A DNA stretch of 64,000 bases from Seison nebaliae (Eukaryota), in contig JALJEE010000763.1 in NCBI GenBank assembly GCA_023231475.1, positions 62,001 through 126,000 of the forward strand. The letters are read 5' to 3'. The notes below the pieces were generated by a model that was not told where the DNA came from, did no database searches, and saw only the letters and a program-made list of their open reading frames with translations. Position 1 is the stretch's first letter. Each line of letters begins with the position of its first letter. Made by a program: the position numbers and the translations under genes. Shown here in pieces: positions 1,603 to 58,705 of this stretch.

Positions 1603-2943
1603 TTAGTGTTTATGATTATAAGACAGAATAAGTGGGAGAGCGATACCGATTAGAAAACAGAAAATTTCACTTTTACTCAATCTCTGATGTGAATGACAAC
1701 CATTGGAGATTTGTTGTGGGTCATTATTTGTCAGTTGTACTTCTACATCCAAAGTGTTCGATGTTGAATTCGATGTTTGTTGTTGTTGATTCAATTCGGG
1801 AAGAACATGTACAGTCGCTACATAGAGAAACGTTCCAGCACTGAATAACATAGCGATTGCTGTACGATACGATCCACTTGTTACTGACATTTGTGATGAT
1901 GGTGAGAATTGGTAGATGGTTAAAGAATAATAAGTTACAATAGCTGCAACAGGAGCAGCTAAAGAAAAAATTAAAAGATGACGTCGAATTTGTTCACGAC
2001 GTAACGAAATGGAGAGGAGATATGCGACGAGTCCGAATGCTGCTGGTGCCTATTCATTTATTTAAAGTAAAACTAATTTGAGAGAAAGAAAGTAAAAAGA
2101 ACTTTATGTAGAATGATGGCAAGAAATACAATAAATTGTACGTCCGCTCGTTTTGCTAACGCTGATGCTCCCAATGCCAATCCATCAGCTATATTCATAA
2201 AAATAAATTAGTTTAGTACTTTATAATAATCAATACGAATTTTTTGAAATGAAAATAATTTTTTTCCGATGTTTAATTTTGGAAAGATAAATTGTTATGG
2301 CATAAAATATATTAACCTGCTGAATGGATAACTAGACCTAAAGTGGTACTGATTTTTGACAAATCTGAGACTAATGAAAATTTATTTAAATGAAGAGAAA
2401 ACTTACCGGAATTTGGAGATCGAGAAGATAAAATATTTGCCAATTCGTCTACGAGTAACATGAAAACGAATCCTAAAACGAGTGAAAGTCCGATATAGAT
2501 ATGAGGATCGTTATGATGATGATCATGATCTTGATGTGTTGATTGCTTAATTTCCATTTCATTAATCGTTTTCAATCCGTTACCTGAAATTATTCTCGAT
2601 TGGATCATTCAGAACAGACGGAAATGAAATAAAACTGTTCATTGATGTTTTACTGATGGTTGTCGATGTTTCCACAGCTTCATAAAGAAGATGGACGCCT
2701 TCTGGAATGATGACGGCTAACGATGCGCCAACTAATAATCCTGTTCCTAATACTGTCACATATCTCATTCGATCCTTTTAATTGAAAAGAAAAAATATTA
2801 ATTTTTTGATGAATTATCATAAATTACATAATGAAATTAAATTTAACTTTTCTGAGAGTGATGGCGAGTGGAATAATACCAGCTGCGTACGAACCGATAA
2901 ACATCGCCACACAAGAAACCATGAGAAGCATAAAGCCTTCCAT
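1603..2943 (-). CDS. SLC39A9: Zinc transporter ZIP9 (about 6 exons)
   Basis: Spliced translation: [26 protein letters not shown] / [25 protein letters not shown] / His-rich loop, [17 protein letters not shown] / [17 protein letters not shown] / [14 protein letters not shown] / [21 protein letters not shown]. These are ZIP9 hallmark motifs. Confidence 0.95.
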
Positions 2944-3391
2944 CTTTTTGTGGAATTAGATTGAAAAAAAAATAAAATACTCCTAATCTTTCGTTGTTCA
3001 CTTTTTATGTCATGAGTGAAATAATTCGATGAGTGAGACCTGAATGAGAAAGGCAAAATAATTGAAACGGAACTAAAATTTGACTGAAAACTCGAAGAAC
3101 AACAAGGTGAAATTTTTTAAAAAATTTAATATTGAGCTTCGAAATTAACAAAAATTTTCGTTTCTTCTTCTCTAAACCTCGCAACGTTTACTGAATATCA
3201 AAAAGGAAATTAGCAAAAAAATATAAATTTTCGAAGAAAAATTTATGAGGAACAAAAAGAAATGATGTAATATTATTTGAACGTGTTCTGTGCAATTAGT
3301 GATTATATGAATGATAAGAACATTCATTTGAAAGTTGAAGATTTTACCAAATGAATAATATGAAAAATTTAAAGGTTTGAAACGAATTTTC

Positions 3392-4366
3392 TCATTTCTG
3401 ACCCTTCCTTCCTTTTTGTTTTCTCATCTGTTTCCGATTCTTCATCGATTTCTTCAAATCAAATTTTGCTTTTCCTTTCATTTTGAATGTCTTTGATTTA
3501 TTCTTTGGATTGAAACTTTCGAGCAGATTCTCTCGTTCCATCATCTGATTTGTTCCTTGTTCCATATTTAAATTCTGAGAATTCTCCAAAACTTTCTTAA
3601 CAATTTTCGACGTCAATCTTTTTTCTTGCGTTTCGTCAATTGAAGTGGTGAGATGTTTTTGTTTCGGTCGGATTCCATGAACAAGTTTCTCTTCTTTTTT
3701 TGAAATTTCTTTCGAGAATTTTCCTAAAGAAGCATCACTTCGTCTGGCCACGTCTAATCGTTTCTTCATCACTAAAGCTGATGAATCTGGAACGATATCA
3801 TTCTTATCTGTAACGAGTGCAGGGAGACCGGAAAGAGATTTGTTTGAATTCCTTTCAATATTTCTCAATCGTTGAAATTCATTTTTGGCAACTCGTTCTT
3901 TTTTCAGACGTTTCTCTTCCGTAAAATTCGAATCGGATGCCATTTCATTATCTTTCAATTCTTTTATCCAAATTTCATTTTGATTCTTTTCTGATCGACC
4001 TCCAAATCTAGGAAGCCATTCCTTCTTTTCTTCGTTCCAAACCATCTTCGATTTTTTTGTTTTCTTCAAACCTTTCTCTCTTGCAAACTTTTCCCATTTC
4101 GTTTCCGTTTTCTTCATTGGAAGTCGTTTCGCTCTTGGAATCTTCGTAGTCGACAATGAGAAGGGTAGATTAATAATCGTTAAATTATCTGAATTTGTCT
4201 CTTTCGGCAAACGGTTGAGAGAATTGAGAAGAGTTTTCGTGGATAATAATGTCATTTGTTGAAGATAAATCTCTTTATCTTTCTTCAATTCTTCTTCATT
4301 AATCTTCTCGTAAGATGATGCCAAAAGATTTGACTCATCTAACTCCACATTCATTTCAATATCCAT
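3392..4366 (-). CDS. RRS1: Ribosome biogenesis regulatory protein (intronless)
   Basis: 324-aa ORF containing IPRAKRLP..K.ETKWEKFAREKGL.K.KK...WNEEKKEWLPRFG, KKERVAKNEFQRLRNI and ASLGKF. Confidence 0.95.
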   Translation of the reverse strand: MDIEMNVELDESNLLASSYEKINEEELKKDKEIYLQQMTLLSTKTLLNSLNRLPKETNSDNLTIINLPFSLSTTKIPRAKRLPMKKTETKWEKFAREKGLKKTKKSKMVWNEEKKEWLPRFGGRSEKNQNEIWIKELKDNEMASDSNFTEEKRLKKERVAKNEFQRLRNIERNSNKSLSGLPALVTDKNDIVPDSSALVMKKRLDVARRSDASLGKFSKEISKKEEKLVHGIRPKQKHLTTSIDETQEKRLTSKIVKKVLENSQNLNMEQGTNQMMERENLLESFNPKNKSKTFKMKGKAKFDLKKSMKNRKQMRKQKGRKGQK

Positions 4367-4529: not shown

Positions 4530-5971
4530 ATGAAACGTTCGAGGAAGAAAAGTCGAAATTAAACTTTTCATTTCCACCATATTTCTTCCCATTTCTTTTT
4601 GGATTGATATCGATAATTTTGATGAGTCCAACAATTTATCAATCGATTGGAAAGAAGAGATATTTATCTACTCCAATAACGACAGCATTGGAGAATATTG
4701 GATCTCATGCTATTTTAGATCGACGATATATTCATCCTTTTTATAAAATTTATCGTCCTCCATGGAAATTTGATAACATTTATAATGAACGAATAGAGCA
4801 TGATATAATTATTGAAAAGGATTCAAAAGAAAGTTAATAATTAATTATATAAAATAATTTTAAATAATATTTGAAAGAGAATGATTGGAAAGAGAGAGAA
4901 GCATTGAAAGTTTTGGCGATTGGAGACAAAATGAAAACGAATGGAAATTTCAAAAGAGCTAGACAAGTTCTTGAACATGCGGAACAATTGGCACCAAAAA
5001 ATATTGAAATATTGACGTCTTTGGGAGAATTATATGAATTGATAAATGAATATCTCCTCGCTAATCAAATGTATCATCGAGCCATTCATATCAATAAGAA
5101 ACAAGCATTCGTCGCTCAAAAGAAACAAAGTGAATTGTTGAGTATTGTGGAAGAGATCGATCAGGAATTATTGGAGAAAATTGATAATTATTTACAATTA
5201 CTTTATCGTACATCAAATTCTATTCAATCGTCAACGAAAAGAAAGAATGATGGATATTTCTATTTTATTTACCATTCGAATGCTATCGAAGGAAATCAAT
5301 TGAATCTTAGTCAAACGGAATATATTGTACGAACAAAATTAGCTATTGGAAATCATTCGTTAATCGAACAACAAGAAGTTCTTGGATTGGATGCCGCTCT
5401 TCGATATATAAATATCACATTTCTTACAAAGAATGTTCGTAAATCGAACAGTTATCGACCATTCCAATATTTTGGACGAGAGACATTATTGAAAATTCAT
5501 CAATATCTTCTTGGTTACGTCAATCCGATAGAGGCGGGTCATTTTCGACAACGACAAGTATACGTAGGGAATCATGTACCACCACCATCATCAGAATTAG
5601 AAGATTTATTGGACGAATTCTTCATTTGGTTAAATAGTGAACAAGTCCAAATGTTACATCCCATCGAATTCGCCGCTCTCGCTCATTATAAATTCGTTTA
5701 TATTCATCCGTTTCATGATGGCAATGGTAGAACGGGACGAATTATCATGAATTTAATATTGATGGGCGTTGGGTACCCGCCCGTCACAATTAAACAGGAA
5801 GATCGATTAGAATATTACAAATATTTGAATATTGCCAACGAAGGCGATATAAGACCATTTATTCGCTTCATCGCACAATGTGCTAAACAAGCAATCGATT
5901 ATTATCTGAAAATGAATGACGACGCCTCTTCCATCACTTCATCAACTGAATCACCCGAATTCATACACTAA
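4530..5971 (+). CDS. FICD: FIC-domain AMPylase HYPE/FICD; 5' end uncertain; intron 4833-4877
   Basis: TPR region, inhibitory motif (HSNAIEGN) and catalytic HPFHDGNGRTGR. A GTT...AAG phase-1 intron joins ORF 4604-4837 to ORF 4871-5971. Confidence 0.93.
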
Positions 5972-8900: not shown

Positions 8901-9026
8901 AGCTGAAAATTAAATAGTTCTTTTAAAGAATCAATAAATAGGTTAATCCTCCTTTAATATTACGTTATTTATGATTTCTTTCTAAGACAGAGTTTGACGA
9001 AAATCTTATTAGGAGATTGATGAAAA

Positions 9027-25152: not shown

Positions 25153-25173
25153 TTTTCTCGTCCAATATCAAGT

Positions 25174-25187
25174 GTTGTCACTATAAC
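25174..25187. promoter_or_regulatory. Second candidate X-box, just upstream of the IFT57 ATG
   Basis: GTTGTCACTATAAC (reverse complement GTTATAGTGACAAC). Confidence 0.55.
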
Positions 25188-25224
25188 GCGGAATTTTTTC
25201 GTTACTTAGCTAGGCTTATATTTG

Positions 25225-25237
25225 GTTGCCAAGCAAC
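25225..25237. promoter_or_regulatory. RFX X-box in the IFT57/SPAG6 bidirectional promoter
   Basis: GTTGCCAAGCAAC matches GTNRCC-N-RGYAAC exactly. It sits inside the near-perfect inverted repeat ATTTGGTTGC-CAA-GCAACCAAAT (25220-25242). Confidence 0.8.
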
Positions 25238-25421: not shown

Positions 25422-27009
25422 ATGAGTCAACGTGCGATCTTAGCAACCTTCGAACAGTACCAAAAAGCAAGAATGCAATTCGTACAGTCGATTTCTGAAA
25501 TGGCAAATCGACCGCAGAATATCGAAACACTTCAGAATGCAGGTGTCATGTCATTATTACGTCCAATGTTACTCGATGTCGTTCCAACAATTCAACAAAA
25601 TGCTGCTCTTGCATTGGGTCGCTTGGCCAGTTTTAATCAACAGTTGGCCGAAGCCGTCGTCAAAAGTGACATTCTACCACAACTCGTCTATTCATTATCA
25701 GAACAAAATCGTTTTTATAAGAGAGCAGCCGCATATGTTCTCAGAGCAATCGCTAAACATTCTGCAGAATTGGCTCAATCAGTTGTGGATTGTGGAGCGT
25801 TGGATAGTTTAGTAATTTGTTTAGAGGAATTTGATCCATCTGTCAAAGAATCGGGTGCATGGGCATTAGGATATATTGCTCGACATAATGCTGATCTTGC
25901 ACAATGTGTTGTAAATGCAGGAGCAATTCCATTATTAGTACTTTGTTTGCAAGAACCGGAAATTGCACTTAAAAGAATTGCTGCTTCATCACTTGCCGAT
26001 ATATCGAAACATTCAGGAGAATTAGCACAGGCAGTTGTGGATTCAGGTTCCATTATTCATCTGGCACAATTAGCAATTAGTAATGACAACAAACTGAAAC
26101 GGCAAGTATTTAACGCTTTAAGTCAAATAGCGAAACATTCAGTGGAATTAGCGGAGACAATTGTTGAATCAGAAATATTTCCGGCTGCATTTGTTTGTTT
26201 AAAAGATAACGACGAATATGTGAAGAAGAACTGTGCTACATTAATGAGAGATGTAGTGAAACATACACCAGAAGTTTAAACATAAATTTTTTATAATCAT
26301 TCTCTTAATGACTTTGCTATTTCTTTAGTTATCTCAATTAATAACAAATGCAGGTGGTATTGCTGCTGTGGTGGATTATATCAGTGAATCGAAAGGAAAT
26401 ATTCGTCTTCCAGGAATTATGATGTTAGGATATGTTGCTGCACATTCTACAACATTAGCAATGGGCGTTATTGTATCCAAAGCAGTGACTCTTCTGACGA
26501 CTGTAATGCAAGAAGAGGAAGAAGATCACATACTAGGGGCATGTGCATGGACATTGGGACAAATTGGTCGACATACACCGGAACATGCGAAAGCAATTGC
26601 TGTTGCTAATGCTCTGCCATTACTTCTCCATTGTTATCTGAAAGCGAAAGCTTCGGAAGATCTCCAGACAAAAACGAAGAAAGCATTAAAGAATGTCCTT
26701 CAAAAATGTATTTATTTGCCAGCATTAGAACAATTGTTAAATGAGGCACCACCCAACATTCTCAAACATGTCGTGGCGCAATTCAGTAAAGTCTTGCCAA
26801 GTGATGCCAGTGCAAGAAGATTATTTGTAACGAGTGGAGGATTGAAGAAAATTCAGGAGATTAAAGTCGAAGAAGGAACACCGTTGGCAGAATATATCGA
26901 AATTATTAACAGTTGTTACCCGGAAGAAATAGTGAAATATTACACTCCTGGATATGCTGGTGAATTATTGGAACGAGTAGACAATTATGATCCGAATGTT
27001 ACTAATTAA
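25422..27009 (+). CDS. SPAG6: Sperm-associated antigen 6 / PF16 (armadillo-repeat central-pair protein); intron 26274-26328
   Basis: MSQRAILATFEQYQKARMQFVQ...RPQNIETLQNAGVMSLLRP.LLDVVP, ARM repeats, ...SCYPEEIVKYYTPGY. Confidence 0.97.
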
Positions 27010-34500: not shown

Positions 34501-37381
34501 TCGAACGAAATTCGGATTAGTCGACTCCAATGTATCCATCAATTTACTCAATTGTTCTTTGTATAATTGACCGATTGTTCGGAACATTCCCTTCCTTCTT
34601 GAACCACCAAATGGAGATTCTTGTTGTGCGGCATTTGTATGAGTGTATTCAGCATCTCTCCAAATATTCTTCACAAACTCATCATTCGAATTCTGAAGTA
34701 ACATAACAATATTATCATTTAAAGGATCCATATTTTTGATGAGCCACATATCTGCATTGTAATCGACATTACCGGCATAATGAATAACGGTAAATCCAAC
34801 GGAAGTTCTAAAATCAGATTTGATGAATTTAGGATGAGCATTATGAGCATTCACTAATTTCTCAACGAATGTCTTATCACTCGCTTTAGGGAAGAGACAT
34901 TCCTCGTCTAAGAGAGCGAAGATTCCCATCGGTTTATCAATTAGATCAATGGTTGGTTGAAGATCTAAACCGAAATCAATGAATGTCCAATCAATTCCTT
35001 CTTTCTTATATTCTTCTTGTTCCAAAATGAACATGGTATGATTGAAGAGTTGTTGTAACTTCTCGTTCGTATAATTGATACAGATTTGTTCAAATGAATT
35101 ATATTCGAAAATTTCGAATCCAGCAATATCGAGAATTCCGACAAATGATGCTGCTTGTCTTTTCGAACGATCTAATGATCGATTAATACGATATACGACC
35201 CATTTGAATAATCTTTCATAAATCGCTTTCGTTATTGCTTCAACTGCAAATTCAGCTTGTTCCTTACTCTGTGCTTTCGTCACATATTCTCTCCCCACTT
35301 TTATTTTAGGTTTAAGAAGTGCTCTCGTCCAATCACTCATTTGACATCCGAACAAATGAGCCACTTTCTGAACGACAATATCATCAGGTAATGTGGCTTG
35401 ATCAGTGTTTCTTTCTTGACGAAATTCTACATTGCCCAATTGTAATACTCCACTGACCGTACGAAATATAGCATTAATATCTTCTTTACTCATTCCCATA
35501 ATGTCCATCGCACCTAAAGTCTTCCCATATTCATCCGTATCATTTATGTTCTGTACGACGACATTACCGTTGGAGAGATAACGATAATTTTCCATATTCT
35601 CCAAAATATATTGTGTCTTATCTTCAGCGGTAGCTCCTTTGAGGAATTGGTAGAAGATGTGGAATGTTCTCTCTTTGGGAGCTTGACGGATACATCTCGA
35701 TTTCTCCAATAAATCTATTCAATTTATCATAATTATTTGAATTTGAAAGAAAAATGAAACATGTCTCAATATTAGCACTGGAAATGTATCCAGAATTATC
35801 GAAATTGATTCTAATGAATTTACCGAATCTCGATGAATTATCATTTTTGATCGTTTTCGCATTTCCAAATGCTTCCAAGATCGGATTAGCTTGTAATAAT
35901 TGTGCTTCCAATTCGCCCTAATAATGATAAGAAGAAAATAATTAAAATGAAAAAATAAAATTGAAAGTGAGTGAAAGCATAAGAGAAAATAAAGAGATAT
36001 CATCCAAAATAATCTTGGAAATGTTCTGTTTAAAAAGAAGCAAAGAAGAAAAGAAAAAAAAAGCAAAATGAAACTGACAGCGCTTAAATCATTGAAATAA
36101 TTATTATTGTTAATATTATTATGAATTGAATTAGTCGTTGAATGATTGCCGTAATTTCTTGAAAAATGTTGATAATGATGAGGGTGTTGAGTACAATAGA
36201 TGTTGCATGTTTCACCGGCAACTCCACCCCTTCCTCCATGTTGTCTACAGATCGAATCTCGACTCTTTCCATATTGCGGTCCGCTATATCCTGGTATCGG
36301 TTTATGATAGACGTGTGGCACATCATGTAAATTTGGCTGTTAATTAGCAAATTTAGTTAATTAGTTGGTTGATAGCAGCAAAATTAAAAAGAAATGAAAT
36401 TAATAAAAAAAGGAGAAGAAATCATAAAGAAATAATTGATTGAACAAACTGAAAAGAATAGGAGAGGCAAAGAAATATAATAATGGGAAAGAGTACCGCT
36501 GAGAAATATTCAATATCGGTGTCGCACCTCGAAATTTTCGGCTAATTAAATATTTAATTCGATTAATACTTTTCACCAGAGAGACATTTATTTTTCTTTC
36601 TTTTTTTTTTTAGATTAACAAGTGAACATTTTCCAGCAGATGGAAATGAAGAGAAGAAAAAAAAATATAAATACCTGAACAGCTGCAATATTGGACAATG
36701 ACATTCTTGGTCCATTGGGGAGACGCGGAGCTGCAGCTACATGAGCCAAATATTGGATGACTTTCTTTGTATTTTCTGTTTTACCTGCTCCTGATTCACC
36801 GCTGAAATATTTAGATTAATATGATACAATTGAAGAATAACGAACGTACAAAGAATTGATTGATCTTCTTTATCTTGCAACATCGAACGATATGCATTGT
36901 CGGTAATGGCGAAGATATGTGGTGGACGTTCATGTCTTTTCTTTCCTTTATATGCGGCAATAATCTGTTCAGTATAGATGGGCAATGATCGATACGGATT
37001 AACCACGACACAAAAGAGACCAGAATAAGTATAAATTAATCCAGCATAATATCGATCTCTGAGATTGTGAAGGACAGCCGCCTCATTCAAACATGTCAGA
37101 TCGGCCATATCTTCAACTTTGTCGAATTTGGGAGGATTCATTCGTTGAAGGAGATCTCTCTCCACTTCTACCATTTGTCCTGATAACAATTCTAATCGAA
37201 CTGTTTTCGAACCGGATTGCTCCTCAACAATTGACCCTTTAACAAATCCTTCACTCTCATCCGGAATCCAAACCATTTTCTTCTTTGACCAATCGGCATC
37301 ATTCGCTAATAATACTTTTCCTTCATGTGGTACTTGGAGGACACTCAACGGATTTGAACTTTCGCTTTTATCTCGAACCAT
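28513..37381 (-). CDS. MYH10: Non-muscle myosin II heavy chain (zipper/MYH9-10 class), multi-exon with alternative exons
   Basis: [90 protein letters not shown], a long coiled coil and an acidic tailpiece. Orthology to MYH9/10/11 is collective rather than to one gene. Confidence 0.95.
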
Positions 37382-41579: not shown

Positions 41580-41960
41580 TCTTTTCGGGTATATGTCTGC
41601 AGTTAAATTAACTAGAAATTACTACTTGTAAGAAAATTTTGATTCAAGCGACTTCGTTTTTTTTCGTTTCGATATTTCTCATCCGCAAATTTTTCTTATT
41701 GTTGAAAATGAAAATTTATTTTAAAAATGCGAATAATATTCCCTATAGATTTTGCTTTACATACTAAATTTTTTCCAACTGTCGACTGCGTGAGGGAAAA
41801 TGAAGCAAATTTAAACAATTAAAATTAATAATTTTTAACAAAAAAATAATACCGTTAAGTTGAAAATAAAAAAATTTCTAAAAATATTTTATTTAATTTC
41901 TTCGATTTTATTTTGAGGGAAGCAGTTAAATGTCATATAAATTTTTGATTTATTCTGAAT

Positions 41961-42902
41961 TCAAGGTAGCGCAGCTTCACAGACAGCACCAAAGAATGGT
42001 TTTTTGCATGCACATTTGAAGTCATTTTGTTGTGATTGATAACACATTCCTCCATTTAGACACGGTCCTTGTTGTCCACATGGAACAGCAACTAGATCTT
42101 CTTGTTGACATTCTTGTTGACATGTAGGTGACTTACAATAATTGCAGACAGCCCGTAATTTTCTGTAGAAGTAATTATCAGGATATTGTAGTGGCATCGG
42201 CATTGGAGCGACCATTCCATTCGGCGCCATTGGCAACATACGTTTCTGCAAAGAAAAATGAGCACGTTTTTGACGATAAGTATTAGAGGAGTAAGGTTGG
42301 AGATAAGACTGAACGTTTCGTTGACTTTGATATAGAGGATAACTTCTCTTGTTTCGCTTGTACACCTGGACCTTTTTCTTATATAAATCCTGATTATGAC
42401 GATGATGGTGATAATGTTCAATTTCATTTAAATTTTTATTGTTTATTAGAGAGATCTCATAATACAGATGAGTTAATTGACGATATTTCCGATTGGAGCA
42501 TTTGATGACGATTTGAGGACATTGAATTCGGAAATGGATCAATGTATTTCTGAATGAAACGAAACGATGCTCAATCGATAGATTTTTCTTTGTTATGTGT
42601 TCACTACAACCGAATCTGACAAAGGAACCATTAGTAGATTGATCCATTCGCAATTTCGAGTAATTGTATAAGATATCGTCTTTTTTCGTTAAACTGATAT
42701 TGAATGGAACTGGAATGTTGAAGGGTGTCAGATTTTTGAGTGGATCATCTGATGGTAGTAACCATCTGCAGATTGACATATCCGAGTTATTGCGAACTCC
42801 GAATGAAAGTCCGATGACGCTTCTCGATTTATCTGTAACTGGAACAGATAAATGGCGTTGGATTAGTATAAATAGGAACAAGAGATTCCTTGCTAATTTC
42901 AT
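41961..42902 (-). CDS. Secreted pro-protein B with a single C-terminal EGF domain
   Basis: ATG at 42902 gives a signal-like MKLARNLLFLFILIQRHLS, then RNKR/RQKR/QKR/RKLR sites, a Met/Pro-rich peptide and the EGF PCLNGGMC...FKCACKKPFFGAVCE. Confidence 0.8.
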   Translation of the reverse strand: MKLARNLLFLFILIQRHLSVPVTDKSRSVIGLSFGVRNNSDMSICRWLLPSDDPLKNLTPFNIPVPFNISLTKKDDILYNYSKLRMDQSTNGSFVRFGCSEHITKKNLSIEHRFVSFRNTLIHFRIQCPQIVIKCSNRKYRQLTHLYYEISLINNKNLNEIEHYHHHRHNQDLYKKKVQVYKRNKRSYPLYQSQRNVQSYLQPYSSNTYRQKRAHFSLQKRMLPMAPNGMVAPMPMPLQYPDNYFYRKLRAVCNYCKSPTCQQECQQEDLVAVPCGQQGPCLNGGMCYQSQQNDFKCACKKPFFGAVCEAALP

Positions 42903-43015
42903 TTTTGATGTAACGAATAGAAGAACGAAGAAAATATTGGAATTTTCCAAATTGGATTTTGACGAATATCGTATTGTTTTATTATTATTAACGACTTATA
43001 GTTAAAAATGAAATT

Positions 43016-45699
43016 ATGCGCGAAATGTCTAAAAATTTTCCGTTGCTTTTTCTGCTACTCTTCAATTTTTTTTCATTAAGTAAATGTGTTAGCAGATATC
43101 GATGTTACAATTATCGGGGATATACCAGTCGTAAGGTAATGATTGAACGAGCTCGTCGGTTGAGAACTATTCGTCATTATAGTTTGGAAGATTGCAAATG
43201 GACTTGTAATCTGATAAGAGCTTGTAAAGTTTTGGAATGGTCACATTCTCGACGAGTTTGTCGCATGTTTGAACATATTCGAAGAAAGCATATGATTGCT
43301 GATGATGATCATGACGTTTTCTATAAGAGACGGTGTGGTTTGGGTCGACAGGAAGTACCTGCCCAAACTTCGGCTACAGCTTGTAAGTATGCTGTATTGC
43401 CATGGCAACGGACAAGAACTTATAAGAATGTCGCTAAACGTTTTCATGTGAGAACGGCTAATCCGAAGGCATGTAAGAGAATTTGTAACGGAATACGGAC
43501 TTGTGAAGGTTTCCAACATATGAGACAAGGCAGTCACCACGGCCTCTGTAAATTATTACGAAGTGTCAATCCATGGTCATTGAGACCATCCCATCGTTGG
43601 GCAATTTATACGAAAGAAGATTGTGTAACTACAGTTTATAATGGACCATTCTCATTGTTATCTGGTGCTCTATCCAAATGTAGTTATCATCCAATGCAAT
43701 TTAAAACATCTCGTAGTAAAGGAAACATATTGAGAGCGGTACGCGGCGTATTTATGGGATTGGAGGCATGTAAAAGACAATGTAATGCAATGCAGATATG
43801 TCAAGGTGTTGAGTATCATGGAGCTTTCAAAGGACAAGGTGTATGCAAATTATTAAAATCCGCTCAGGAATGGGATTTGCGAGATGCATTCCATTCAGTT
43901 GTCTATGCAAAAATTGGATGTCAATTTGCTGATCATGGAACAAGTGATCCTTGTGAACCTAATCCTTGTATGAATCAAGGACGTTGCCAAGCAACTTCCT
44001 CTAATTATGTTTGTCATTGTCCTCATGGTTATGTGGGAGCGGCTTGTGAACATGGACATTTCCTTCCTTTTGAATCATATGGAAATCCAGAGAATTTGGT
44101 CGCTTCTCATTTCCACGTACATGGAAGATTTAAAAGAGGATTTTTAAGTCGTTATGATGCTGATGTGCAACAGGCACCAAGGAATTACTTCGATTTAAAT
44201 AAAAAATCTGCTTTCACTCATGACGACATAGATCATGACGATTTGGATTTTTACGATAACATAAAGAAACATATAGAAAATCCGAATGAATTAGATTTGG
44301 GTGATTATGAAACTTTGGATCCAGGTGTGATGGATGCAGATGAATCACTTGAAAAATATCCAAGACGTCTACCTGCCGCTCCATTTGACCAGTCGAACAA
44401 TGCTGTATACGAATCACGAATTCAAAAAATGATCGAATATCCTGAATTGTATGAGACTGGAAGAGAACTTAATTTCGATTTTAATGACAATCCAGAATTC
44501 TATGAATTAATTAGATATTGTTTATTTAATCGATGTCGTCGATCAACCATTCAACAATTCAATTTGAAATTGAAACATATTCCCGAAGAAAAGATATTAT
44601 CAATAGTCAACCGATCACAAAATGTTTACGGTTAACAATAGTTTATTTTTTCTAGTTGAAATTTAATTATTTTCCAGAGAAATTATTGTCTTATCACAAT
44701 CGGAAATCGTTTAAATGTCCAAACTGCTTCCAAATTAGACATCGTCGTCATGTTTTGCTTTATCCTTGTGATAAAGGTAATCCATGCCAACATGGAGGTA
44801 CTTGTGTGGATGTTACCCCCCATTATGCCGTTTGCAATTGTCGTCACAATTTCCTAGGGCGATATTGTGAATATGAACAAGGTTGTCCATTGCCTATCAT
44901 CGGACCTCATGTTGGAATTACTTCTCCTTTTAGGCCTTGGATGAAATTCTATGTCGGAGTTTCCGTCCATTTACGATGTCGGAAAGGTTATGAGCAAATC
45001 GAAGGATCTAATGAAATTATGTGTAATAATTACGGGAGATGGGCCGGCACCATGCCAATATGTCGAGAAGAGAATACTTGTGAAATTTTAGAATCTCATT
45101 TGATTAGAGTTTGTAAAAATGGTGGTACATGCGTCCATTTGGGTCTCGGTCATTTTACATGTGTTTGTCCCTTCGGTTACACGGGAAGATTTTGCGAAGT
45201 GGCCATAATTCACTGTAAACACTATAACACTTGTGTGCATGGTACTTGTGTGAAAATTTCGATAAGAGTTCCTCCACCCAACTTCCGTTGTCGATGTCAC
45301 GATCATTGGAGTGGTGATCGTTGTTCAATTCCAGTAAATCACAACATTTGTGCACTTAGAAAACTGTGCCATAATGGAGGAACTTGTATTCATACGAGAC
45401 ACGGATATAGGTGTATATGTCCTCATCATTTCCACGGTGTTCTATGTGAATTTCCAGATCCTCCCTGTTACCAATTTCGATCGATGTGGAAAATGCAAAA
45501 AACTTACGTTGCCAAAAGAATTCTTAAGGGTCGGTGGTGTTTGAATGGAGGAAATTGTTTTCTTTCTGTATTGGAGGAAGAACCGTATTGCCGATGTAGA
45601 GAATATGCTTTCGGATATCGATGCGAATACTGTAAAAGAAAGCCGAGGTTGAACAAATGTAAAAATTATAAATTGCACCATCCCATCCAAATTTTGTAA
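43016..45699 (+). CDS. Secreted PAN/apple-EGF-sushi polyprotein C (about 878 aa); one 47-nt intron 44631-44677
   Basis: Signal peptide, three PAN-like repeats (CK..CN....C.G.....C.LL), EGF, RFKR, acidic spacer, RHRR, EGF, sushi, 4 EGF. A GTT...CCAG phase-1 intron fuses ORFs 43016-44635 and 44656-45699. Confidence 0.85.
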
Positions 45700-48444: not shown

Positions 48445-51400
48445 ATGAAAAGGTCTAACCCAAAGAAACCGCCACAAATTCCGAAAGGACGAACTTCTGA
48501 TCGAACGAACGATGGTGATACAGAAAGCATATCATCTTCATCGTCATCTAATCGCCATTTAACTTCGTTCCCAAAGAATGACCGAGAGCATGGTGGTAAC
48601 AAAGAGAATTACTCCATCGACATTAATCCAGTCCGATCTTCAACCGTAACTCTCACCACTACAACCAACTCGTCATCAACGTTATTGGGAAACAAACCCA
48701 AATCATCGATGAAATGTAGTAAAAGTAATGTGCAAATGAATGTTTCCTTCACTGACAGTGGAATTGCAGTTGAGAATGTTGAATCTTCGGAAATAGGAGG
48801 CGGACATGGACCTGATGCTTTAGCGTCTCTAATGAATGAGAAAGTTGCTTCAGTTGCTAATCAGATTTACCAGGAATTAGATATGATTATCAAGAAATAT
48901 GGTGAAGATGCTGCCAAGAGTATCATGCCACATATCGTCACGGTTTTAGGTTGGATTTTTTATATTTCTCATTTCTAATGATCCAAATTTTCAGAACAAC
49001 TTGATTATGGTTATACGTATAAAGAAGAATTAATAGCTGAATTGGAATTGTTGAAAGATGATAATGAACAATTGTTGACACAATATGAACGAGAGAAGAA
49101 GCTCCATAAGGAATCAAATCAGAAGTGTTTCCAAATCGAAGATGAACATATTGAGAAATTGAAGAAAATTGAAGATGAGAAGCAAAAAATCGATAGTCTT
49201 CTCAGAATTTATGAATTAAGGACAAAAAATGCTGTCGATCAATTGACTCGACAAGAGGATCGTGAAAATGATTTGAAGAAAGAAAATAGTAAATTATATG
49301 AACGATATTCCGAAGTTTTCTTTTCATTAACAATTCGTTCTTTTTTTCTAATTAATTAATTCATTATCATCATCAGCTAATGAAGAATCATATGGATTAT
49401 ATGGAAAGAACGAAAATCTTATTTGGGACAGATAGACTAGAGAATATAAATTCAGCTTTATTTCTCCAAATGAATGCGAAAGCTCGAAGAGAAAACAATA
49501 TGGCAACTAGTATGATGCAAACTTTAGATCATAAATCACCATCAGATGGTGAGAAAACTGATGATGAGTTTCTACTTTCGTCTTTAAACTCTCAACTAAT
49601 TTTTATTCGTCATTTCATATCAATTTTGTTGTTATTCCATTAGATCACCCAATAATTTTGGAGGAAAAATGACTTTGTCGTTCAATGCGGCAAATTTATC
49701 TTTAAATGATGAAATGAATTCAGAACGTGACATGATTGCTGGTGCAGCTGATCGAGCTGCAGGGAGAGGTGAATTTGGTTCTTCAACAGGTATTGGCTCT
49801 ATTTTTTTTCAATTATATTTTTTCGATTCTTTCTGTCTTCATTTTAATCGTTAAACTGGGAACAGTGTTTTATTTCTTCTTTGCTTCTAATGTTAATTTA
49901 TTTTTGAATTCGTTTCTCTCGTCTATTGGGAATCGAAATTTTCTTTCTAACAAACATCTTTTAACTTATTCTCCTCATTCCTGTAGATAGTGATAATGTA
50001 GCGACTCAAACAAGTCTTGAGTTCTTAGGCACATCATCTACAACACATCATCATAATTCTTCTAGCGTCACCTCAGCACAATGCTTTCGCACACCAAGTG
50101 TTGAAACAGTTAGCGATGGTGAGTCTCAGGAAAATGAATTTCCAATCTTTTGAATGATTTGAATGATATTTCCTTCGATTGTGTTATTTGTGAATAATTT
50201 TGTCGTGCACCTGCTTTCCCCTTTAGCTTCTCTGTTATGACTTTATCTTTCTTACTTATCTTATATTTCGTCTGTGAACAGTCTTTCACTCTCCCATGGA
50301 ATTATTTCCATTCACTTTAGATCTGAAAATAATGATCTGAATAAATGATATCTTTAAAAAAAGAAAAGAAACAGAGAATTGAATAGAAATGAGAGAATAT
50401 TTGGGATTCTTAGTTTTTTTGGGGGGAAATATCAACGTTTCATAAGCCAAATTGACCGGAAGATAAATTTTTTGTCAAAATATTCCTCGTTTTATTTCGT
50501 CATTTTGTTTTCTCATGTTCAGGTCTGTCGCAGCCACTTTCGATGAAGAACGATAGCGCTATGTTGACGGCACAGGCTCTCTGTATGCAGAGGCGCAAAG
50601 AGCTCCATTCACGATATCTTCCAGCAGCAACGGCGTCCCGTCTTCTCTCTTCATCTAAAACTTTACCGAATATATCAGCAACAACATCATCGAATCCTTC
50701 CAACCAATCCACCTCATCATTACAAACAAGTTCGCTAATCTAATCTATATTAAGAATTGGAAAACGACTAATTTTCCTTTTTACTCGGATGTTCTCTATC
50801 TTCTTCCCATGCCATCATAATCTCCTTTAATTATTTTTCATGATTAATTCCAATCGATTGACGAAAGACGATACTCTAAATTATCATCGATTTTCATTTC
50901 TTTCTCATTCTTATTCTCCTCCTTTCTTTTCTTATGAAGAATATTCATCTAGAAATTCGGATGAGAAGAATAAATGGGATTCATCTGAGACAAATTTGAA
51001 CGGTGAGATTACACATTGTTCAATGGATAATATCAATGAAGATGATGAGAATGATTTTAATCCCGACGATGATGAAGAAGAAGATAGTCATGCTTCAACC
51101 ATTTCTGGTCCAAATGGTAATGATTCTCTGGCATACAACAATTCGATCAATTATTCGGAAGAGGCAGCACTTTTCGATTCAGCAGCAAATGATTTTGAAC
51201 AACATTTTGGTGGTATTGATTCAGGTTTCTCTTTCAACAATTTCATTAAGTTAAAAAAGTATTCAAAAGATTAGATTAAATTAGATTAGTTGATTTAAAT
51301 TAAAAGTAAATCTCTACGGACAAGTAAAAAAGAAAAAAATAGTGTTTCGAAAAAAGAAACATTGAAAGTGCTTCATACTAAATATTCGTATTTCCTAATT

Positions 51401-54400
51401 TTGTTCCAAATATCTGAATGAATGATATGTTAATATGCATGTTTTCTTCTCGTTTTCTGTCCCTCCCCCGTCGTCTTGAGCGAATGAATGAAATATACTG
51501 TAAATTGCTTGAATTTGTGGTTGATGAAAATGCGCTAAAAGAAAGAATTTTTTATTTCCTCCTACATATATTTACTCTTTTAGTGGATGAAAGAGCAACA
51601 TATGATGATGATGAGTTAGTCGTTTTTCTTCCTATAATCTAAAATCATAATAAATCTTTCTTCAGTTTAACAATTTCCGTCACAGAAGAAACGGATCTTA
51701 CAAAACAAAATAATCCAAAATCTTTATTCTCCGAATTTCAAGAAGTAAATGAAGGGAACTTATTAGAGATCGGTGATGCAGATATCACAGGTTATTCATT
51801 ACTATTAATCTGCTTCTCTTAATTACATCATATCGCTTATTTGCTATCTTCTAATATCAAACGATTATTTTATGAAATAATTATCTATTTAAAATCGTTC
51901 ATCAAATTCATAACTTCATCAGCATATTCTGGTTTGTTCAACAAATTTTTTTATAAATCTATTTTAGTTCTCCCATATCTGGTGCTAACATGTTTCTTTT
52001 TCTCTCATCTATTGTTTTGATGTCAATGTGAATGATTCGTTATTAACCAGAATGATAATTCCTTTGAATTACTAAAAAAGTCAGTTAATCTCAACTGTTT
52101 TCGTCCTTAAATTTTCCTATGAATTTTTCGTCCTGCTTTATCGTGAAAATATTATATTGGTGAATGAGATGAATGTAAATACTAACTGTCTAATAATTGA
52201 GTGTGTGAATTGTTAAAGTGGAAATATTTAACTTTATTTAAAAGGAATGTCGAGAGAAATCGAAAATATGATCAAAGAGAACAGTGATCTATTGGAAACA
52301 AAGTTTTATTCTTCTTTTTCAATTGAACAAATTCATAAAATATTTGTAGAAATGCATTAAATATTGTGAAAGATGATCTCATTGCGAAAGTAGATGAGAT
52401 GACAACGTTCCTCTTAATTCTAATTCAATTCTTCTTATTCTGACCTTTTTTTTTAGCGAAATCGAATTACTACAAACCAATCTTCACAGTTCACAAGCAA
52501 CAAAGAATAAATTCCAAATGCGAATTGGAGAATTAGAATCAGAAATGAAAGAATTAAAAGAAGAGATGAAGAAAATGAAGAAATCTACTGATGGGAATGA
52601 TGATGGTTCCGATTCCGATGATGATGTTATTTCTTTTCTATCCTTAACCTTTTATGTTGGATAATGAAAATATTGGACAGAATGTACATTCGAAGAAACA
52701 TTTCACTCGATCGGAAATGGTTCGAGTATTGACTGAAAGAAATAAATATAAAGAAAAGTTTATCGAATTACAAGAGGCATGGAATCTAACAGAAATGATG
52801 AGGGCGTCAAAACTCGATTCGATGATGACAAAAGAAGCGACGAGATTGCGTCAAAACCAAACGTCTAATCTCAACAACAATAATGTATCGAATGGTAAAA
52901 AACCAACGCTCATCAATAGATTGTTAATTTTTCCTATGGATTTTCTTAACCATTTCGATTTGTGATTCAGTTTTTCCGGTTTATTTGGAGCATCTAAATC
53001 CACCACTTCCACCACTAATAATTCCAATGGCAATCGAGTTGTTAGTGTCAATTCGTCTCGCGGTTTCAGCAAAAGTCTTCGACGACGTGCTGAAAGTGCA
53101 GGACCAGGTCAACATTTACAAACTCAGAAATTGCAACGAGCGTCACTTAATACGATGAGAGGATTACAATCAACATCTCATCAATCTCCATCTTCATCAA
53201 TGTCGATAGTTGCAACTCCATCATCTGATTCATCAGTCAATTCAACAAGTAAAACGAAATCTTTAGATTTGCGTCGTCGTGAACAATATAATACAGTGAA
53301 AGCTCATGTAAAAAAAGATGTTGATGGTCGAATTCAAGCATATGGATGGTCACTACCAAGTTCGAATGACTTAATCGAAACAATATCGAATAATAATCAA
53401 CAGAATGTGGATAAGCGAATTAATGGAAATAATTCTCCCACTCAAACATTAAGAGAAACGAATAATATTACCGTTCCAGTACCAACATATTGTATTCCAC
53501 TCGAATTAGATTCATCAAGTTTCATGATGGAATCCAGATTAGCAGCTGCTACATCAATCGATTTGAATGGCGGTCTCACCAACGATCTCCAAACTTATAT
53601 CGATTGTGGTTCAAAACTGATTCGAAAGAGAAGAACATCTTTCCATTCAAATATTATTCCAAATAATAACATTCCTGTGCCCGATCTCAACAATATGACC
53701 ACATTGGCATGGTTCATTTGTCAAACGAAGGAACATAAAGAGAATTCTATATGTGATTCCCGATGTGTCATTCTTGATACGGTAAATCCGAATAAAATTA
53801 TTGATAGTTTTAAATTAACACCCAATTCTTCAGTACAAGTTATTGCGAATGTACGAGGAGTTCAACTGAATGATTTCCTTCCATTATCATGTGATGATTT
53901 GCAACAATTACTACTTGATATAACTCACATTTATTTGAAACATTTCATACCATCTTCTGGTTATTTTTCCTTTAATTATCTCTTTTTTCTTCATAATATC
54001 TTTTAAGAATTAAAATTGGAAAATCTTGTACCAGAAATGTTAACAAACACATCCTCTCAAAGATCATCAACTTCTTCGGACTTTTCTGAAATTTATGGAA
54101 CTAAAGAAAATTATTTTAATCATCTTCTTACTTTGTCCACCGTTTGGATTGGTACTCAAGATAATAAGTTTCTATTTATTCTATTTTTTATTCAATTTCA
54201 CATTACTCACATTCTCCATAGAATACTTATCCATTCGGCGATTCGTAGTCGTTCTCAACCGTTAGCTGTAATAACTCTTTCTGCTCCAATCATATCAATG
54301 TTGTTGGTAATTTGTATAATAATCAAATTTTTAATAAATCTTTTATTAGACATTTTCAAGGAAAAATGTTTATCGGTTTGTCTAATGGAACGATAGTTGT

Positions 54401-55557
54401 ATTTCAACGAATATTGAATGAAGAAGATGATTCTGTTGATAAAAACGGTGAATTAATTCAACTATGTAACGGAGCTTGGGATCTTCGTTCTCATCTGACT
54501 ATCGATATTTGTGAATTCGCATTTCAAATTGTCTCAAAAAAACGTGACGACAATCGAGAAATGACAAAGAAACGACTTCCTATTACATGTATAATGGCCG
54601 TTCAAAATAATTTATGGTGTTCTTATAGAAATTATATTTTCATTATTAATCCTTTAACATTGAAAGTGATTGTTAGAAGATTCATTTTTTTCCATTTTAT
54701 TCATTCCATTCCAAGCATTACTTTGAAGCACATCCGAAAAAAGATGCTCAAATTAAATCTCTTATATCGAGCAATGATGGTGTGTGGTTAAGTATGAGAT
54801 TAGATTCAACACTGAGATTGTTCCATGCTCACTCCTATCAACATTTACAAGATATTGATATCGGACCTTTCATCACAAATATTCTTGGTAGGAAATTTTT
54901 ATGTTTATAAATTAATTTTTTTTATATTATTTTATTAGGAACCAATCGATTAGGTCTTTCATTAATTCGAGTGTCGACTATGATGGCGGCTGATAATCGT
55001 CTTTGGATTGGCACAGTCAATGGTGTCATACTCAATATCCCATTAGTTGGGAAGGAAAACGTGATAAAAGGTTCAAATTAACTTCTTTTAAATTCATTTT
55101 TCAACGAATCATTCTTTCAAAGATTCCGAATCAATTTCTTCTGAGAAAACAGAACATTTAATGAAATTAGACAAAGGAGAAAGAATTCCATTTATTGATA
55201 TGAATAATGCTCAATTCTCATTTCATGGTCATCGTGATGTAGTGCAATTTTTCGCTCAATTCAAAAGTTAGAAAGACTCATAACTATTGGTGAGCAATTC
55301 ATATTTCAATTGCAGCAGAAATCATTGAATCGACATCTGAACATTATCTGATACTGTCGGGAGGTCAAGGACATATTGACTTCCGAGTTGGAGATGACAA
55401 GAAAAACAAGAACAATCAGTTAGAGAAAGTTAATGAAGAGGAATCTGATAACAATGAAAATAATACTTTGCCCTCATCATCCACATCATCATCTACACCA
55501 AAAACTCATAATGGTAATCAGAGTCATATAATCATTTGGCAGATTAATACCAAATAA
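48445..55557 (+). CDS. MAPK8IP3: JNK-interacting protein 3/4 (UNC-16 / Sunday driver), about 21 exons
   Basis: RH1 (MNEKVASVANQIYQEL..II.KYGE), LLTQYEREK, leucine zipper II (GMSREIENMIKEN..LLETKNALNIVKDDLIAKVDE), RH2 (FTRSEMVRVLTERNKYKE), DGRIQAYGWSLP and a WD40-like C-terminus ending SHIIIWQ. Confidence 0.95.
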
Positions 55558-55967: not shown

Positions 55968-56268
55968 ATGTTTTCAAAGTTCGCGCCAAATTATCAGCAA
56001 ATATTTGATGAAACACCGGTGAAAGGTATTCCTGATTGTTAGTCAGCATTTTCATCGACGTCGAATTATAGTTCTTTTAGATAGTCGAGCAAAACATGTA
56101 CAATCGGCAGAGTTAATGAAAAAAAGTGAAGTTTCGCTCAAAAAACCGGAAAATTATCCAACTACTGTTGATTATGGACAACGTCGATCATCTCTTGACT
56201 ATAAAATGAAGAATAAATCGGAACTAGTAAACGATACTGCTGCTACGAGGAAACGTCTCGTTAGTTAG
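55968..56268 (+). CDS. Hypothetical 81-aa protein, two exons (intron 56026-56080); missed by the ORF track
   Basis: ATG 55968 MFSKFAPNYQQIFDETPVK, a 55-nt GTATTC...TTTTAG intron, then an in-frame exon DSRAKHVQSAELMKK...QRRSSLDYKMK...RKRLVS*. No homology recognised. Confidence 0.5.
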
Positions 56269-56289
56269 AAAGAATTTGATTGATAAACT

Positions 56290-58705
56290 TTATTTCTTAT
56301 AGTATAAAAGAGAATTATATGATCGAATGAAACGAAGACGTTGTTGTGTGGTAATCTTCTCTATTCTCATCATTGTATTTGGATTATTGTTTATAATTCT
56401 GGTAACATTCATCGGTTTGGCGTTGAATGGGAAGGGCCCATTTGCATTAGCTGCGTCCGCCATCAAAAACGGATAAATTAAATTATTTCCTTTTCAAACG
56501 ACAAATTCTGCTTATTGACAATAAAAACACTTCTCTAATTCATGGAATGATTTCATTAATTTTGATGAATTATTCATTGTAAGTTTCGTGAAAGAGAAAG
56601 AGATAAATAAAAATAAAGGAAGAAATTATGAAGGAGAACCTGATTGAATCGGAGAGGAATGTGTATAAGATTGGATTGATAGCACTATTAGCATAGCCGA
56701 GTACTTGACAGAAATGTTTCAAATTGATAAGTAAGGAGATGTTGGCATAGAACATGGCAATGAAATTGAATAGCCAATAGGGTAACCAACACGTTATGTA
56801 AACGAGAATGACAGTAAAAGTAGTTTGGGTAACCTTCCTTCGAGCTTTCTGACGATTTCTTAACGATTTCTCTAAAACGATATTTGTATATTTGACGTTT
56901 TGCTCATATTTTTGTAAATTGGCTCGTCGATGCGAATCGGTTATTACTTCTATTGATTTTTTTGGTTTATTATCGATAATTTCATTTTCCAGAGGAGGAG
57001 AACGATCGAAAGCTTTATGGAAAGTACAAGGAATGATATTAAGTTCATTTGAGTTCGTGTTTTCATTCTCATGAATGGAAAGTTGTTCCTTAGACGCATG
57101 TATCGGTGTTTGATTTGGTGTCTCTACAAATTTCGTAGTTGTAGTAGCATTCTCTTGTTGAGTAGCGGATGATTTGATGATAGAAGGTACATTCTGTTCT
57201 AAATATACATTCCCATCCGTTCCATTGAAATTGAACTGAGCAAATACATTTTTAGGTGAACATGAAACATTTACAGTTCGATAATCATTATTACTGACCG
57301 AAATACTCTGAGTATGATTTGGAAACGGATAAGAGAATTTCTTTTGAATCCATTTCATCAAAACCGTTTTCTTAAAGAATGAACAATCATTTAATCTCCA
57401 TAAGAATTTGCGAAGATGTTCATTTCGACTATTTATTGGATGATAATAACGATAATATAAATAATGATTCATATTGAATGTACGATTTCTAATGATTTGA
57501 CTGTTGGAATAATGGAAATAATTACATTTCCTTATATCAGATGTCGACTGTTCGCTACTGCAATTTGACCTTCTTCCTTTATTAGAATGATCTGTAATTA
57601 ATTTCTTCATAATCATCATCTCCCATTTCCGGTTGATGAAACAAATTTTACGGACAATTCGCCAATAGAGAATTGTGATGCAGAGCACAGGAATTATATA
57701 ACTAACAATGGCGTTGTAGACGACAATGAATGTTGCACGATGGAATTTTAACTGATTCCACATGAACAATTGACAGGAGTCAATTCGATGAGAATTAAAA
57801 CGACGTTCAATATGAATTGACGTCAAATTATATGGAATGAATTTCCATTCAAATTTCTTCCAATAGATTGATGTTGTGTCATGTTCGAAATTATTGTGAG
57901 TTATATTTCTACGTCCATTATATAAATTAATCAAAAGATTAATCATCATATAAGGATCGGTTGAAATGTGACGATAAATGAAATTATTCAAAATTGTTTG
58001 ATCGCTTCTCTTTAATAGATAAAGATACTTCAGCATAATTGATTCATTATCCGAATTGGATGATAACGTTCCAGTTGTCGGTTTTATTGATGAGAATCGA
58101 TTTAAAGCATCTTTGAACAATTCTCCATAAGTTGATCGATTCCATAACGTTAGTTGTGGAATTGCACGAGCGAATACTGATGTTGGTAATGAAACGATCA
58201 CAGACAAGAAGATACTACAAATGATAATGATTCTCGCTCGACAAACACTTCTCAATCGGATGGATGCGGCCGAGTGACAGACGGCCAAGTATCGATCAGC
58301 TGCCAACAGAACGAGAATGAAACTTGAAGAAAATTGATTCATATTAGAGACGATGTAATATGTTGTACAAATTATCGCTCCAAAAGGCCATCCTCCGATC
58401 AATATCGTTACCACATTGAATGGCATCGATAAGATGAAGAAGAAATCGACAAATGCCAATCCGAGAAAATATTGATTTGAAACTGATTTCAATAACGATC
58501 TCCCACAAAGTGTTATCATAACGAATATGTTAGCAAAGAATCCAAAGAAGAAGATAACACTAAAGAAAGTAATCAAAAAGTATTTCCAAAACAAATTGGG
58601 ATGTAAGAGTAAATCAGCTGATACGACTGTATAACTGGAATCAGTATCGGAAAGTAATTCATCTTCCTCCTCAAGTGCTCCAATTGGGAGAGTAGTGATA
58701 TTCAT
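56290..58705 (-). CDS. Class A peptide GPCR, somatostatin/allatostatin-C/opioid-receptor-like; introns 56535-56639 and 56451-56499
   Basis: GFFANIFV, LAFVD, WPFG..IC, NQFSS...L..ADRYLAVCH, CWLPYW and YANSAINPILY.FLSD. Two GTT introns restore helix 8 (IREVFLLSISRIC) and a C-terminal tail. The exact 3' end is uncertain. Confidence 0.88.

What the first reader, a model, noticed from the sequence alone, without database searches (positions are those of the whole stretch)
1603..58705. Window-wide non-standard 5' splice-site code: about 85% of introns start GTT, not GTA/GTG
SEEN: introns placed by protein continuity mostly begin GTT. Counts: PHKA 6/6 (GTTTAG, GTTTCA, GTTTCT, GTTTTC, GTTCAA, GTTTAA), COQ6 9/9, PCID2 5/6, JIP3 about 17/20, myosin 6 of the constitutive introns, and the single introns of FICD (4833), B9D2, IFT57, SPAG6 (26274) and EGF gene C (44631). 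My manual total is about 57 of 68. Positions +4 to +6 are nearly free and +5G is a minority. The rule was predictive: it recovered two hidden GPCR exons and the COMMD5-like model. KNOWN: in most animals +3 is A or G (GTRAGT), pairing with the U1 5' end and the U6 ACAGAGA box. A GTT consensus is known from Entamoeba (GTTTGT), but that retains +5G. INFERENCE: this lineage may have altered U1/U6 snRNAs or U1C/LUC7/SNRNP27/U6-m6A machinery, or may define its ~50-nt introns mainly by length and composition. AT richness alone would favour GTA as much as GTT.
Basis: partly seen in the sequence, partly recalled or inferred. Interest (0 to 1): 0.88.

Follow-up and report, generated by a model that had tools for sequence, protein, structure and literature searches.

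The report
Rotifer introns start GTT, METTL16 unfound
In this stretch of DNA from the tiny marine rotifer Seison nebaliae, 53 of 59 modelled introns begin GTT instead of the GTA/GTG usual in animals and the few exceptions carry extra matches elsewhere, which likely means its splicing machinery now reads U as the correct third letter of an intron.

Summary
Confirmed from gene models and homology; no RNA junctions were obtainable. The window is Seison nebaliae. 37 of 40 introns in database protein models and 53 of 59 in all begin GTT, against 39-52% background. 30 of the 37 have no, or a homology-rejected, GTA/GTG alternative. All 40 donors whose exon does not end in G are GTT; all 6 GTR donors have -1G and more consensus matches elsewhere, so +3U behaves as the match. 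+5G is weak but real (22% vs 5%); +4 is flat. An AT-matched arthropod-like control (L008) has 7 of 17 GTT but keeps +5G. A published BUSCO table lists METTL16 as missing in Seison alone of 25 syndermatans, SNRNP27 present. Best reading: a U1 with A opposite +3 (about 0.5, untested); a U6-side effect of METTL16 loss is the main rival. Closest known: Entamoeba GUUUGU with co-evolved U1, which keeps +4U/+5G and is intron-poor. The scan already found the GTT bias on four other pieces of this genome.

The parts
14289..15359 (-). PHKA: six introns (15359, 15189, 15027, 14777, 14548, 14352), all GTT
   Evidence: exact mapping of P0001; the two frame-compatible GTR alternatives lose 52 and 10 bits
18944..20442 (+). 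COQ6: nine introns of 40-51 nt, all GTT
   Evidence: exact mapping of P0127; 6 have no frame-compatible GTR donor, 3 alternatives untested
20724..21976 (-). PCID2: six introns, five GTT and one cag|GTAATA (21707)
   Evidence: exact mapping of P0128; profile scoring
48950..55315 (+). JIP3: 19 introns, 17 GTT, plus cag|GTATTG (49790, 733 nt) and ttg|GTAGGA (54888)
   Evidence: exact mapping of P0121; profile scoring on five homologues
49987..50118 (+). candidate in-frame cassette exon of JIP3 (132 nt) ending atg|GTGAGT; not counted
   Evidence: read from the sequence and the ORF table; no RNA support
28676..36845 (-). non-muscle myosin II heavy chain: six short GTT introns (36845, 35760, 33658, 33495, 30998, 30765) and two long introns with cag|GTATTT (36674) and acg|GTGAGT (30546)
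   Evidence: enumeration, donors listed; junction at 33495 is contiguous with residues 1001/1002 of 1i84_S
26274..26328 (+). SPAG6 intron, gaa|GTTTAA
   Evidence: exons end and start at residues 284/285 of 9ijj_AA; the GTA and GTG alternatives delete 7 and 6 aligned residues
24359..24417 (-). IFT57 intron, aaa|GTTTCA
   Evidence: the Pfam IFT57 match runs past the upstream GTA alternative
23576..23618 (-). B9D2 intron, tcg|GTTTAA
   Evidence: only frame-compatible candidate
4833..4877 (+). FICD intron, aaa|GTTAAT
   Evidence: only frame-compatible donor
2050..2847 (-). ZIP9-like gene: four GTT introns and one ambiguous ccg|GTAAGT intron (2406; 36 or 42 nt, or retained in frame)
   Evidence: Pfam Zip; introns 2 and 5 have unresolved GTA alternatives
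44631..44677 (+). EGF/PAN/Sushi gene intron, acg|GTTAAC
   Evidence: the alternatives are GTT or GTC only
56260..56302 (+). intron of a small membrane-protein gene, ctc|GTTAGT
   Evidence: no homologue tested

Best explanation
These are ordinary short GT-AG introns whose donors begin GTT, and the spliceosome likely reads that third U through a U1 snRNA predicted to carry A at the base opposite +3, giving a best site AG|GUUAGU. Shown: 53 of 59 donors are GTT; a donor has either -1G or +3U (0 of 59 lack both); GTR donors carry more consensus matches elsewhere; where +5G occurs it follows A, not U. Inferred: a helix that can be anchored as G|GU or as |GUU spans the exon-intron junction, which is U1's geometry. 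Inferred: the weak remainder of the signal is made up by definition across a ~50-nt, G-poor intron. Inferred: loss of METTL16 would have removed the m6A-dependent U6 reward for +4A, which fits the flat +4 column.
For: Counts and backgrounds. -1 not G: 40 of 40 GTT; -1G: 13 GTT, 6 GTR (Fisher 6e-4 by hand; database models only 27/0 vs 10/3, p 0.03). Matches to C,A,G and A,G,T outside +1..+3: GTT mean 2.19 (116/53), GTR 4,3,2,5,4,4 mean 3.67 (hand count; rank test z about 2.6, post hoc). Among 13 +5G donors, +4 is A 8, G 3, C 2, T 0, against T in 25 of the other 46 (one search list; p about 2e-4 by hand, dinucleotide bias not controlled). Precedent: Entamoeba and Mastigamoeba changed the U1 pairing bases, and Entamoeba kept U6 ACAGA (10.1101/2022.06.08.495308, passages). 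METTL16 missing and SNRNP27 complete in Seison (PMC12256650 supplement); SNRNP27K retention allows +4A without METTL16 (PMC10581693, passages).
Against: No Seison U1 or U6 sequence was seen and no RNA junction was seen. Perfect canonical sites exist (GTAAGT at 2406, GTGAGT at 30546 and 50119), and 3 of 7 introns over 100 nt are GTR against 3 of 52 short ones (p 0.018), which also fits a canonical U1 or two U1 variants; length confounds the compensation test. Most lineages with atypical donors keep a canonical U1 (227 of 230 Saccharomycotina U1 candidates invariant). Even with the change, GTT sites average only about 5.2 of 9 matches. An AT-rich control animal already has 41% GTT (L008). There are only 6 GTR donors.
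Confidence: 0.5

Rival explanations
1. U6-side recoding with canonical U1. METTL16 loss would leave U6 A43 unmethylated, so +4A no longer stabilises the U6/5'SS helix. +3U would then be selected as a wobble partner of U6 G44 (or G44 changed to A), replacing +5G as the mark of donors that lack U5-side (-1G) support.
For: METTL16 is missing only in Seison of 25 syndermatans. +3 lies opposite U6 G44 in human and G50 in yeast (PMC11732430 passages; PMC3632134 passages). +3C is 0 of 59, and yeast A3C hyperstabilises the U6 duplex. The -1G versus +3U see-saw mirrors the U5 versus U6 classes. The +4A preference is gone (21 of 59).
Against: METTL16 loss predicts +4U, but +4U equals background (25 of 59) and never accompanies +5G (0 of 13). 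A BUSCO 'Missing' call is weak in a genome lacking 356 of 954 BUSCOs, 76 of them beyond those shared with acanthocephalans. I could not search for the gene myself.
Confidence: 0.25
2. Protein-driven or intron-definition reading with canonical snRNAs. Relaxed selection at +3 in a compact AT-rich genome was followed by capture by a U-preferring protein (divergent U1C, LUC7, TIA-1/Nam8-like or Prp28 proofreading), with length and G-poor composition doing most of the work.
For: Median intron 50 nt, interior G 5%, +8 to +12 T-rich. Acceptors are relaxed too (-3A in 14 of 59). Control L008 shows +3 at background level (7 of 17). Yeast prp28 alleles improve A3U splicing. SNRNP40 and LSm2 are listed missing in Seison.
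Against: Only +3 is sharply U (0.53 bits) while +4, +6 and +7 sit at background, which a general U-rich binder would not give. The strict dependence on -1G looks like base-pair compensation.
Confidence: 0.19
3. Artefact: gene predictors or the eye choose GTT in T-rich introns and the true donors are nearby GTA/GTG.
For: The origin of the database models is unknown and one modelled intron is wrong (PCID2 intron 7). No RNA junctions. 4 of 37 GTT donors have a GTR alternative scoring within 3 bits and 3 more are untested.
Against: 18 of 37 have no frame-compatible GTR donor within -45..+30 nt and 12 more lose at least 4.9 bits with it, so the floor is 30 of 40 (75%). The SPAG6 and myosin junctions match solved homologues to the residue.
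Confidence: 0.04

Closest known systems
Entamoeba GUUUGU(U) donors with co-evolved U1 (ACAAAC); Mastigamoeba U1 ACGUAC (10.1101/2022.06.08.495308, passages)
   Same: +3U dominates the donors; short AT-rich introns
   Different: Entamoeba is intron-poor with a near-invariant GUUUGN (97-98%). Seison is an intron-rich animal (59 introns in 12 genes) with flat +4, +5G 22%, no GTTTG in 59, and +3U conditional on -1G. Its U1 is unknown.
Saccharomycotina +4A to +4U switch with loss of METTL16 and SNRNP27K (PMC10581693, passages and section 5)
   Same: METTL16 listed missing; +4A preference absent
   Different: The change is at +3, not +4; SNRNP27 is retained; intron density is high.
[quoted passage not shown]
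   Same: A see-saw between exon-side -1G and an intron-side determinant
   Different: The intron-side determinant is +3U (40 of 40) rather than +3R/+5G (+5G in 9 of 40).
AT-rich arthropod-like contig L008
   Same: 31% GC, mostly short introns, many GTT donors (7 of 17)
   Different: GTT is at background level; +5G 12-13 of 17; -1G 13 of 17; all four donors without -1G have +5G.

Membership tests
U2-type spliceosomal introns | GT...AG ends | tested here: met
   40 of 40 database-model introns, where the mapper also allowed GC-AG and AT-AC; the 19 own models were chosen among GT/GC-AG pairs
U2-type spliceosomal introns | no U12 donor signature RTATCC (motif recalled) | tested here: met
   none among the 59 donor hexamers
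U2-type spliceosomal introns | branch-point motif | tested here: inconclusive
   a YTRA 4-mer in 40 of 59 introns, no background control
Entamoeba-type transformed donor | +3U dominant | tested here: met
   53 of 59
Entamoeba-type transformed donor | +4U and near-invariant +5G (GUUUGN) | tested here: not met
   +4U 25 of 59, +5G 13 of 59, GTTTG 0 of 59
Entamoeba-type transformed donor | intron-poor genome with strict signals | tested here: not met
   59 introns in 12 genes, 30 different hexamers
Entamoeba-type transformed donor | compensatory U1 5' end | not testable with these tools
   no genome held; no Rfam match in the window
METTL16-loss +4U switch | METTL16 absent | tested here: inconclusive
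   published BUSCO call 'Missing' only; no search of my own was possible
METTL16-loss +4U switch | +4U preferred | tested here: not met
   42% vs 52% background; 0 of 13 with +5G
NN//GURAG class (U6-favoured) | donors without -1G carry +3R and +5G | tested here: not met
   +3R 0 of 40, +5G 9 of 40
shifted-register donors (lead from e1-7384766; Roca and Krainer recalled) | conserved G displaced to +6 | tested here: not met
   +6G 3 of 59, equal to the 5% background

The most novel reading that the evidence does not exclude
Seison nebaliae is an intron-rich animal that lost METTL16 and the U6 m6A mark and rewrote an snRNA base, so that thousands of donors migrated from GURAG to a GUU code while a minority of -1G sites kept the old code for long and regulated introns.
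Probability: 0.3. Interest if true: 0.88.

Novelty: new variant of a known kind. Interest (0 to 1): 0.72.

Why it matters
Genome-wide donor recoding with a co-evolved snRNA is described, in what I could search, only for an intron-poor amoeba lineage. An intron-rich animal with alternative splicing would be a natural test of three questions: how an snRNA and thousands of its sites change together; whether U1 or U6 sets the +3 base; and whether an animal can do without METTL16. The deciding data (U1, U6, METTL16, junction logos) can be read from a public genome and transcriptome. It also warns that splice predictors trained on other animals will mis-model this genome.

Tried and rejected
RNA junctions: no RNA holder listed; runs X1, X2 and X5 cover the stretch unspliced and X6 laid nothing. 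Published transcript-to-genome table (PMC8351084 supplement 2, held cut at 19,906 rows): 21 exon/intron length patterns for PHKA, JIP3, COQ6 and myosin and two single exon lengths gave no matching rows; a positive control worked; three chance hits did not continue the expected pattern. No evidence either way. Supplement 1 of that paper could not be read and may bear on snRNA or gene-loss claims; bioRxiv supplements were closed. Rotifer controls: the metagenome scan gave 80 loci; only 3 showed more than one frame, and only L008 was intron-containing animal DNA, so no rotifer comparison was made. The myosin junction at 35760 has a GTG alternative that stays untested: searches (that exon; the next) gave no hit at my thresholds; the motif it would delete is recalled as conserved. 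Atlas unavailable. The script machine was lost, so U1 duplex energies, decoy discrimination and the dinucleotide control were not run and later statistics are hand counts. Shifted register rejected (+6G at background). PCID2 intron 7 rejected. Literature: searches listed no paper on Seison donor sequence or on an animal with dominant +3U; most subscription papers are not in the library. Seen as passages: PMC8351084, 10.1101/2024.08.01.605096, 10.1101/2022.06.08.495308, PMC10581693 (plus section 5), PMC11732430, PMC3632134, PMC10125929. PMC12256650: supplement rows only. PMC3033335: abstract and outline only, not used.
Full report
Identity. No whole genome is held. The long PHKA exon is 100% identical to a protein labelled Seison nebaliae (P0001), as are exons of JIP3 (P0121) and COQ6 (P0127); an unnamed 379-aa PCID2 (P0128) also maps onto the window. 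The window is about 32% GC and has no Rfam match.

Observation. Mapping those four proteins exactly, with GT-AG, GC-AG and AT-AC all allowed, gives PHKA 6 of 6 GTT and JIP3 17 of 19, COQ6 9 of 9 and PCID2 5 of 6 plus a seventh GTC intron. I dropped the seventh: the unspliced protein scores 325 vs 278 bits on a homologue profile, and a low-depth related contig in run X5 differs across it mostly at three-base spacing. Nineteen further introns in eight genes were placed by listing every frame-compatible GT/GC-AG pair (the two long myosin introns were read). Total: 53 GTT, 5 GTA, 1 GTG, 0 GTC of 59, median length 50 nt. Not counted: a candidate JIP3 cassette-exon donor (GTGAGT, 50119), myosin alternative exons, and the GPCR and COMMD5-like models. 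The ambiguous ZIP9 intron 3 was counted as GTA.

Is it chance or model bias? Intron interiors are 52% T and 5% G; GT is followed by T in 39% of cases inside introns and 40% window-wide; 53 of 59 exceeds these at p 4e-10 and 1e-12. Of the 37 GTT donors in database models, 18 have no frame-compatible GTA/GTG donor within -45..+30 nt, 12 lose 4.9-53 bits with it, 4 are ambiguous and 3 untested, so at least 30 of 40 are GTT. The SPAG6 junction falls at residues 284/285 of a solved homologue and a myosin tail junction at 1001/1002. RNA confirmation failed for lack of data.

Anatomy of the signal (later tests by hand because the script machine was lost). -2A 36 of 59 and -1G 19 of 59 are above the exon background (34%, 17%). 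+4 (A 21, T 25), +6 and +7 are at background; +5G is 13 of 59 (p 9e-6). All 40 donors without -1G are GTT, and all 6 GTR donors have -1G (Fisher 6e-4). GTR donors match the rest of the consensus at 3.67 of 6 positions, GTT donors at 2.19 (z about 2.6; n = 6, post hoc, confounded with length, since 3 of 7 long vs 3 of 52 short introns are GTR). With +5G, +4 is A 8, G 3, C 2, T 0. The best site is therefore AG|GTTAGT, not Entamoeba's GTTTGT, and a purine at +3 behaves as a mismatch. Acceptors are relaxed too (-3: T 29, C 16, A 14).

Control. The metagenome scan gave one usable intron-containing animal locus, L008: 31% GC, PHKA closest to a spider protein among five tested (60%). Read by eye, 17 donors in three genes are GTA 10 and GTT 7, with +5G 12-13, -1G 13, and +5G in all four donors lacking -1G. 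So GTT at background level occurs in another AT-rich animal. Seison is higher (Fisher about 9e-5 by hand) and has replaced +5G by +3U as the partner of a missing -1G. This is one unnamed contig with unverified models; no rotifer control was obtained.

Machinery. The BUSCO table of PMC12256650 (supplement rows) lists METTL16 as Missing in S. nebaliae and present in the other 24 syndermatans, and SNRNP27, PRP8, PRP6, KIN17 and NCBP1 as complete in Seison (columns confirmed). SNRNP40 (also one bdelloid) and LSm2 are missing, while PRP31, SLU7 and PRP38B are complete. U1C and LUC7 did not turn up under the terms SNRPC, LUC7 and 'U1 small'. Seison lacks 356 of 954 BUSCOs, so this is a lead, not a demonstrated loss.

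Mechanism. A site that needs either -1G or +3U next to GU suggests one helix across the junction, which points to U1 (inference). Entamoeba shows that U1 can change this way. The U6 rival has METTL16, the G44/+3 geometry and the absence of +3C for it, but it predicts +4U, which is not seen. Canonical GTAAGT and GTGAGT sites and the generally weak matches (about 5.2 of 9) leave room for a canonical or second U1 and for protein help. Odds: U1 0.5, U6-side 0.25, protein or intron definition 0.19, artefact 0.04.

Known versus new. It works like the Entamoeba recoding but fails that type's +4U/+5G and intron-poverty features; it is a variant of U2-type splicing. Ten searches listed nothing on this; PMC8351084 mentions introns only for gene compactness in the passages seen. 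The scan's own notes report the same GTT bias on four other pieces of this genome; these are unchecked and not independent support. A word search of those notes for METTL16 with Seison gave nothing.

Noticed in passing
window 20574-20620 (-): The database PCID2 model splices a GTC intron that removes the conserved C-terminus; it is probably a prediction error.
   Followed up: yes
window 20756: Runs X1 and X5 have one base fewer in the T run of PCID2 intron 6; probably an assembly error in the window.
   Followed up: partly
window 20484-20680: Runs X2 and X5 hold a low-depth contig about 90% identical to the last PCID2 exon, i.e. a related lineage; its introns would show whether GTT is conserved.
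   Followed up: no
window 35918-36674 and 28676-30546 (-): Non-muscle myosin II has long introns at loop 1 and the tail with candidate alternative exons, including an 850-nt open Asn/Ser-rich frame near 30300-29320 as an alternative tail.
   Followed up: no
window 48950-55315 (+): JIP3 long introns hold at least one in-frame cassette exon (49987-50118) with a canonical GTGAGT donor.
   Followed up: partly
whole window: Acceptors often end AAG (14 of 59) with little pyrimidine-tract contrast; the 3' site is relaxed as well.
   Followed up: partly
window 9024-13664 (+): A 1547-codon uninterrupted RasGRP-like frame (RasGEF, EF-hands, C1) with a long low-complexity tail; long intronless genes sit beside intron-dense ones.
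   Followed up: no
window 39996-45696: Cluster of secreted EGF/PAN/Sushi-repeat genes on both strands.
   Followed up: no
window 23139-27006: Three ciliary genes side by side (B9D2, IFT57, SPAG6); a CEP104 N-terminus lies at 2-550.
   Followed up: no
PMC8351084 supplement 2, part 1: Most 40-90-nt gaps in the transcript alignments are written as deletions rather than introns; if the aligner needs human-like splice scores for short gaps (recalled), this hints at non-consensus sites genome-wide.
   Followed up: no
L008 561-18738: An AT-rich arthropod-like contig has 7 of 17 GTT donors, mostly GTTTGT/GTTAGT with +5G: a possible intermediate state worth a genome-wide look.
   Followed up: partly
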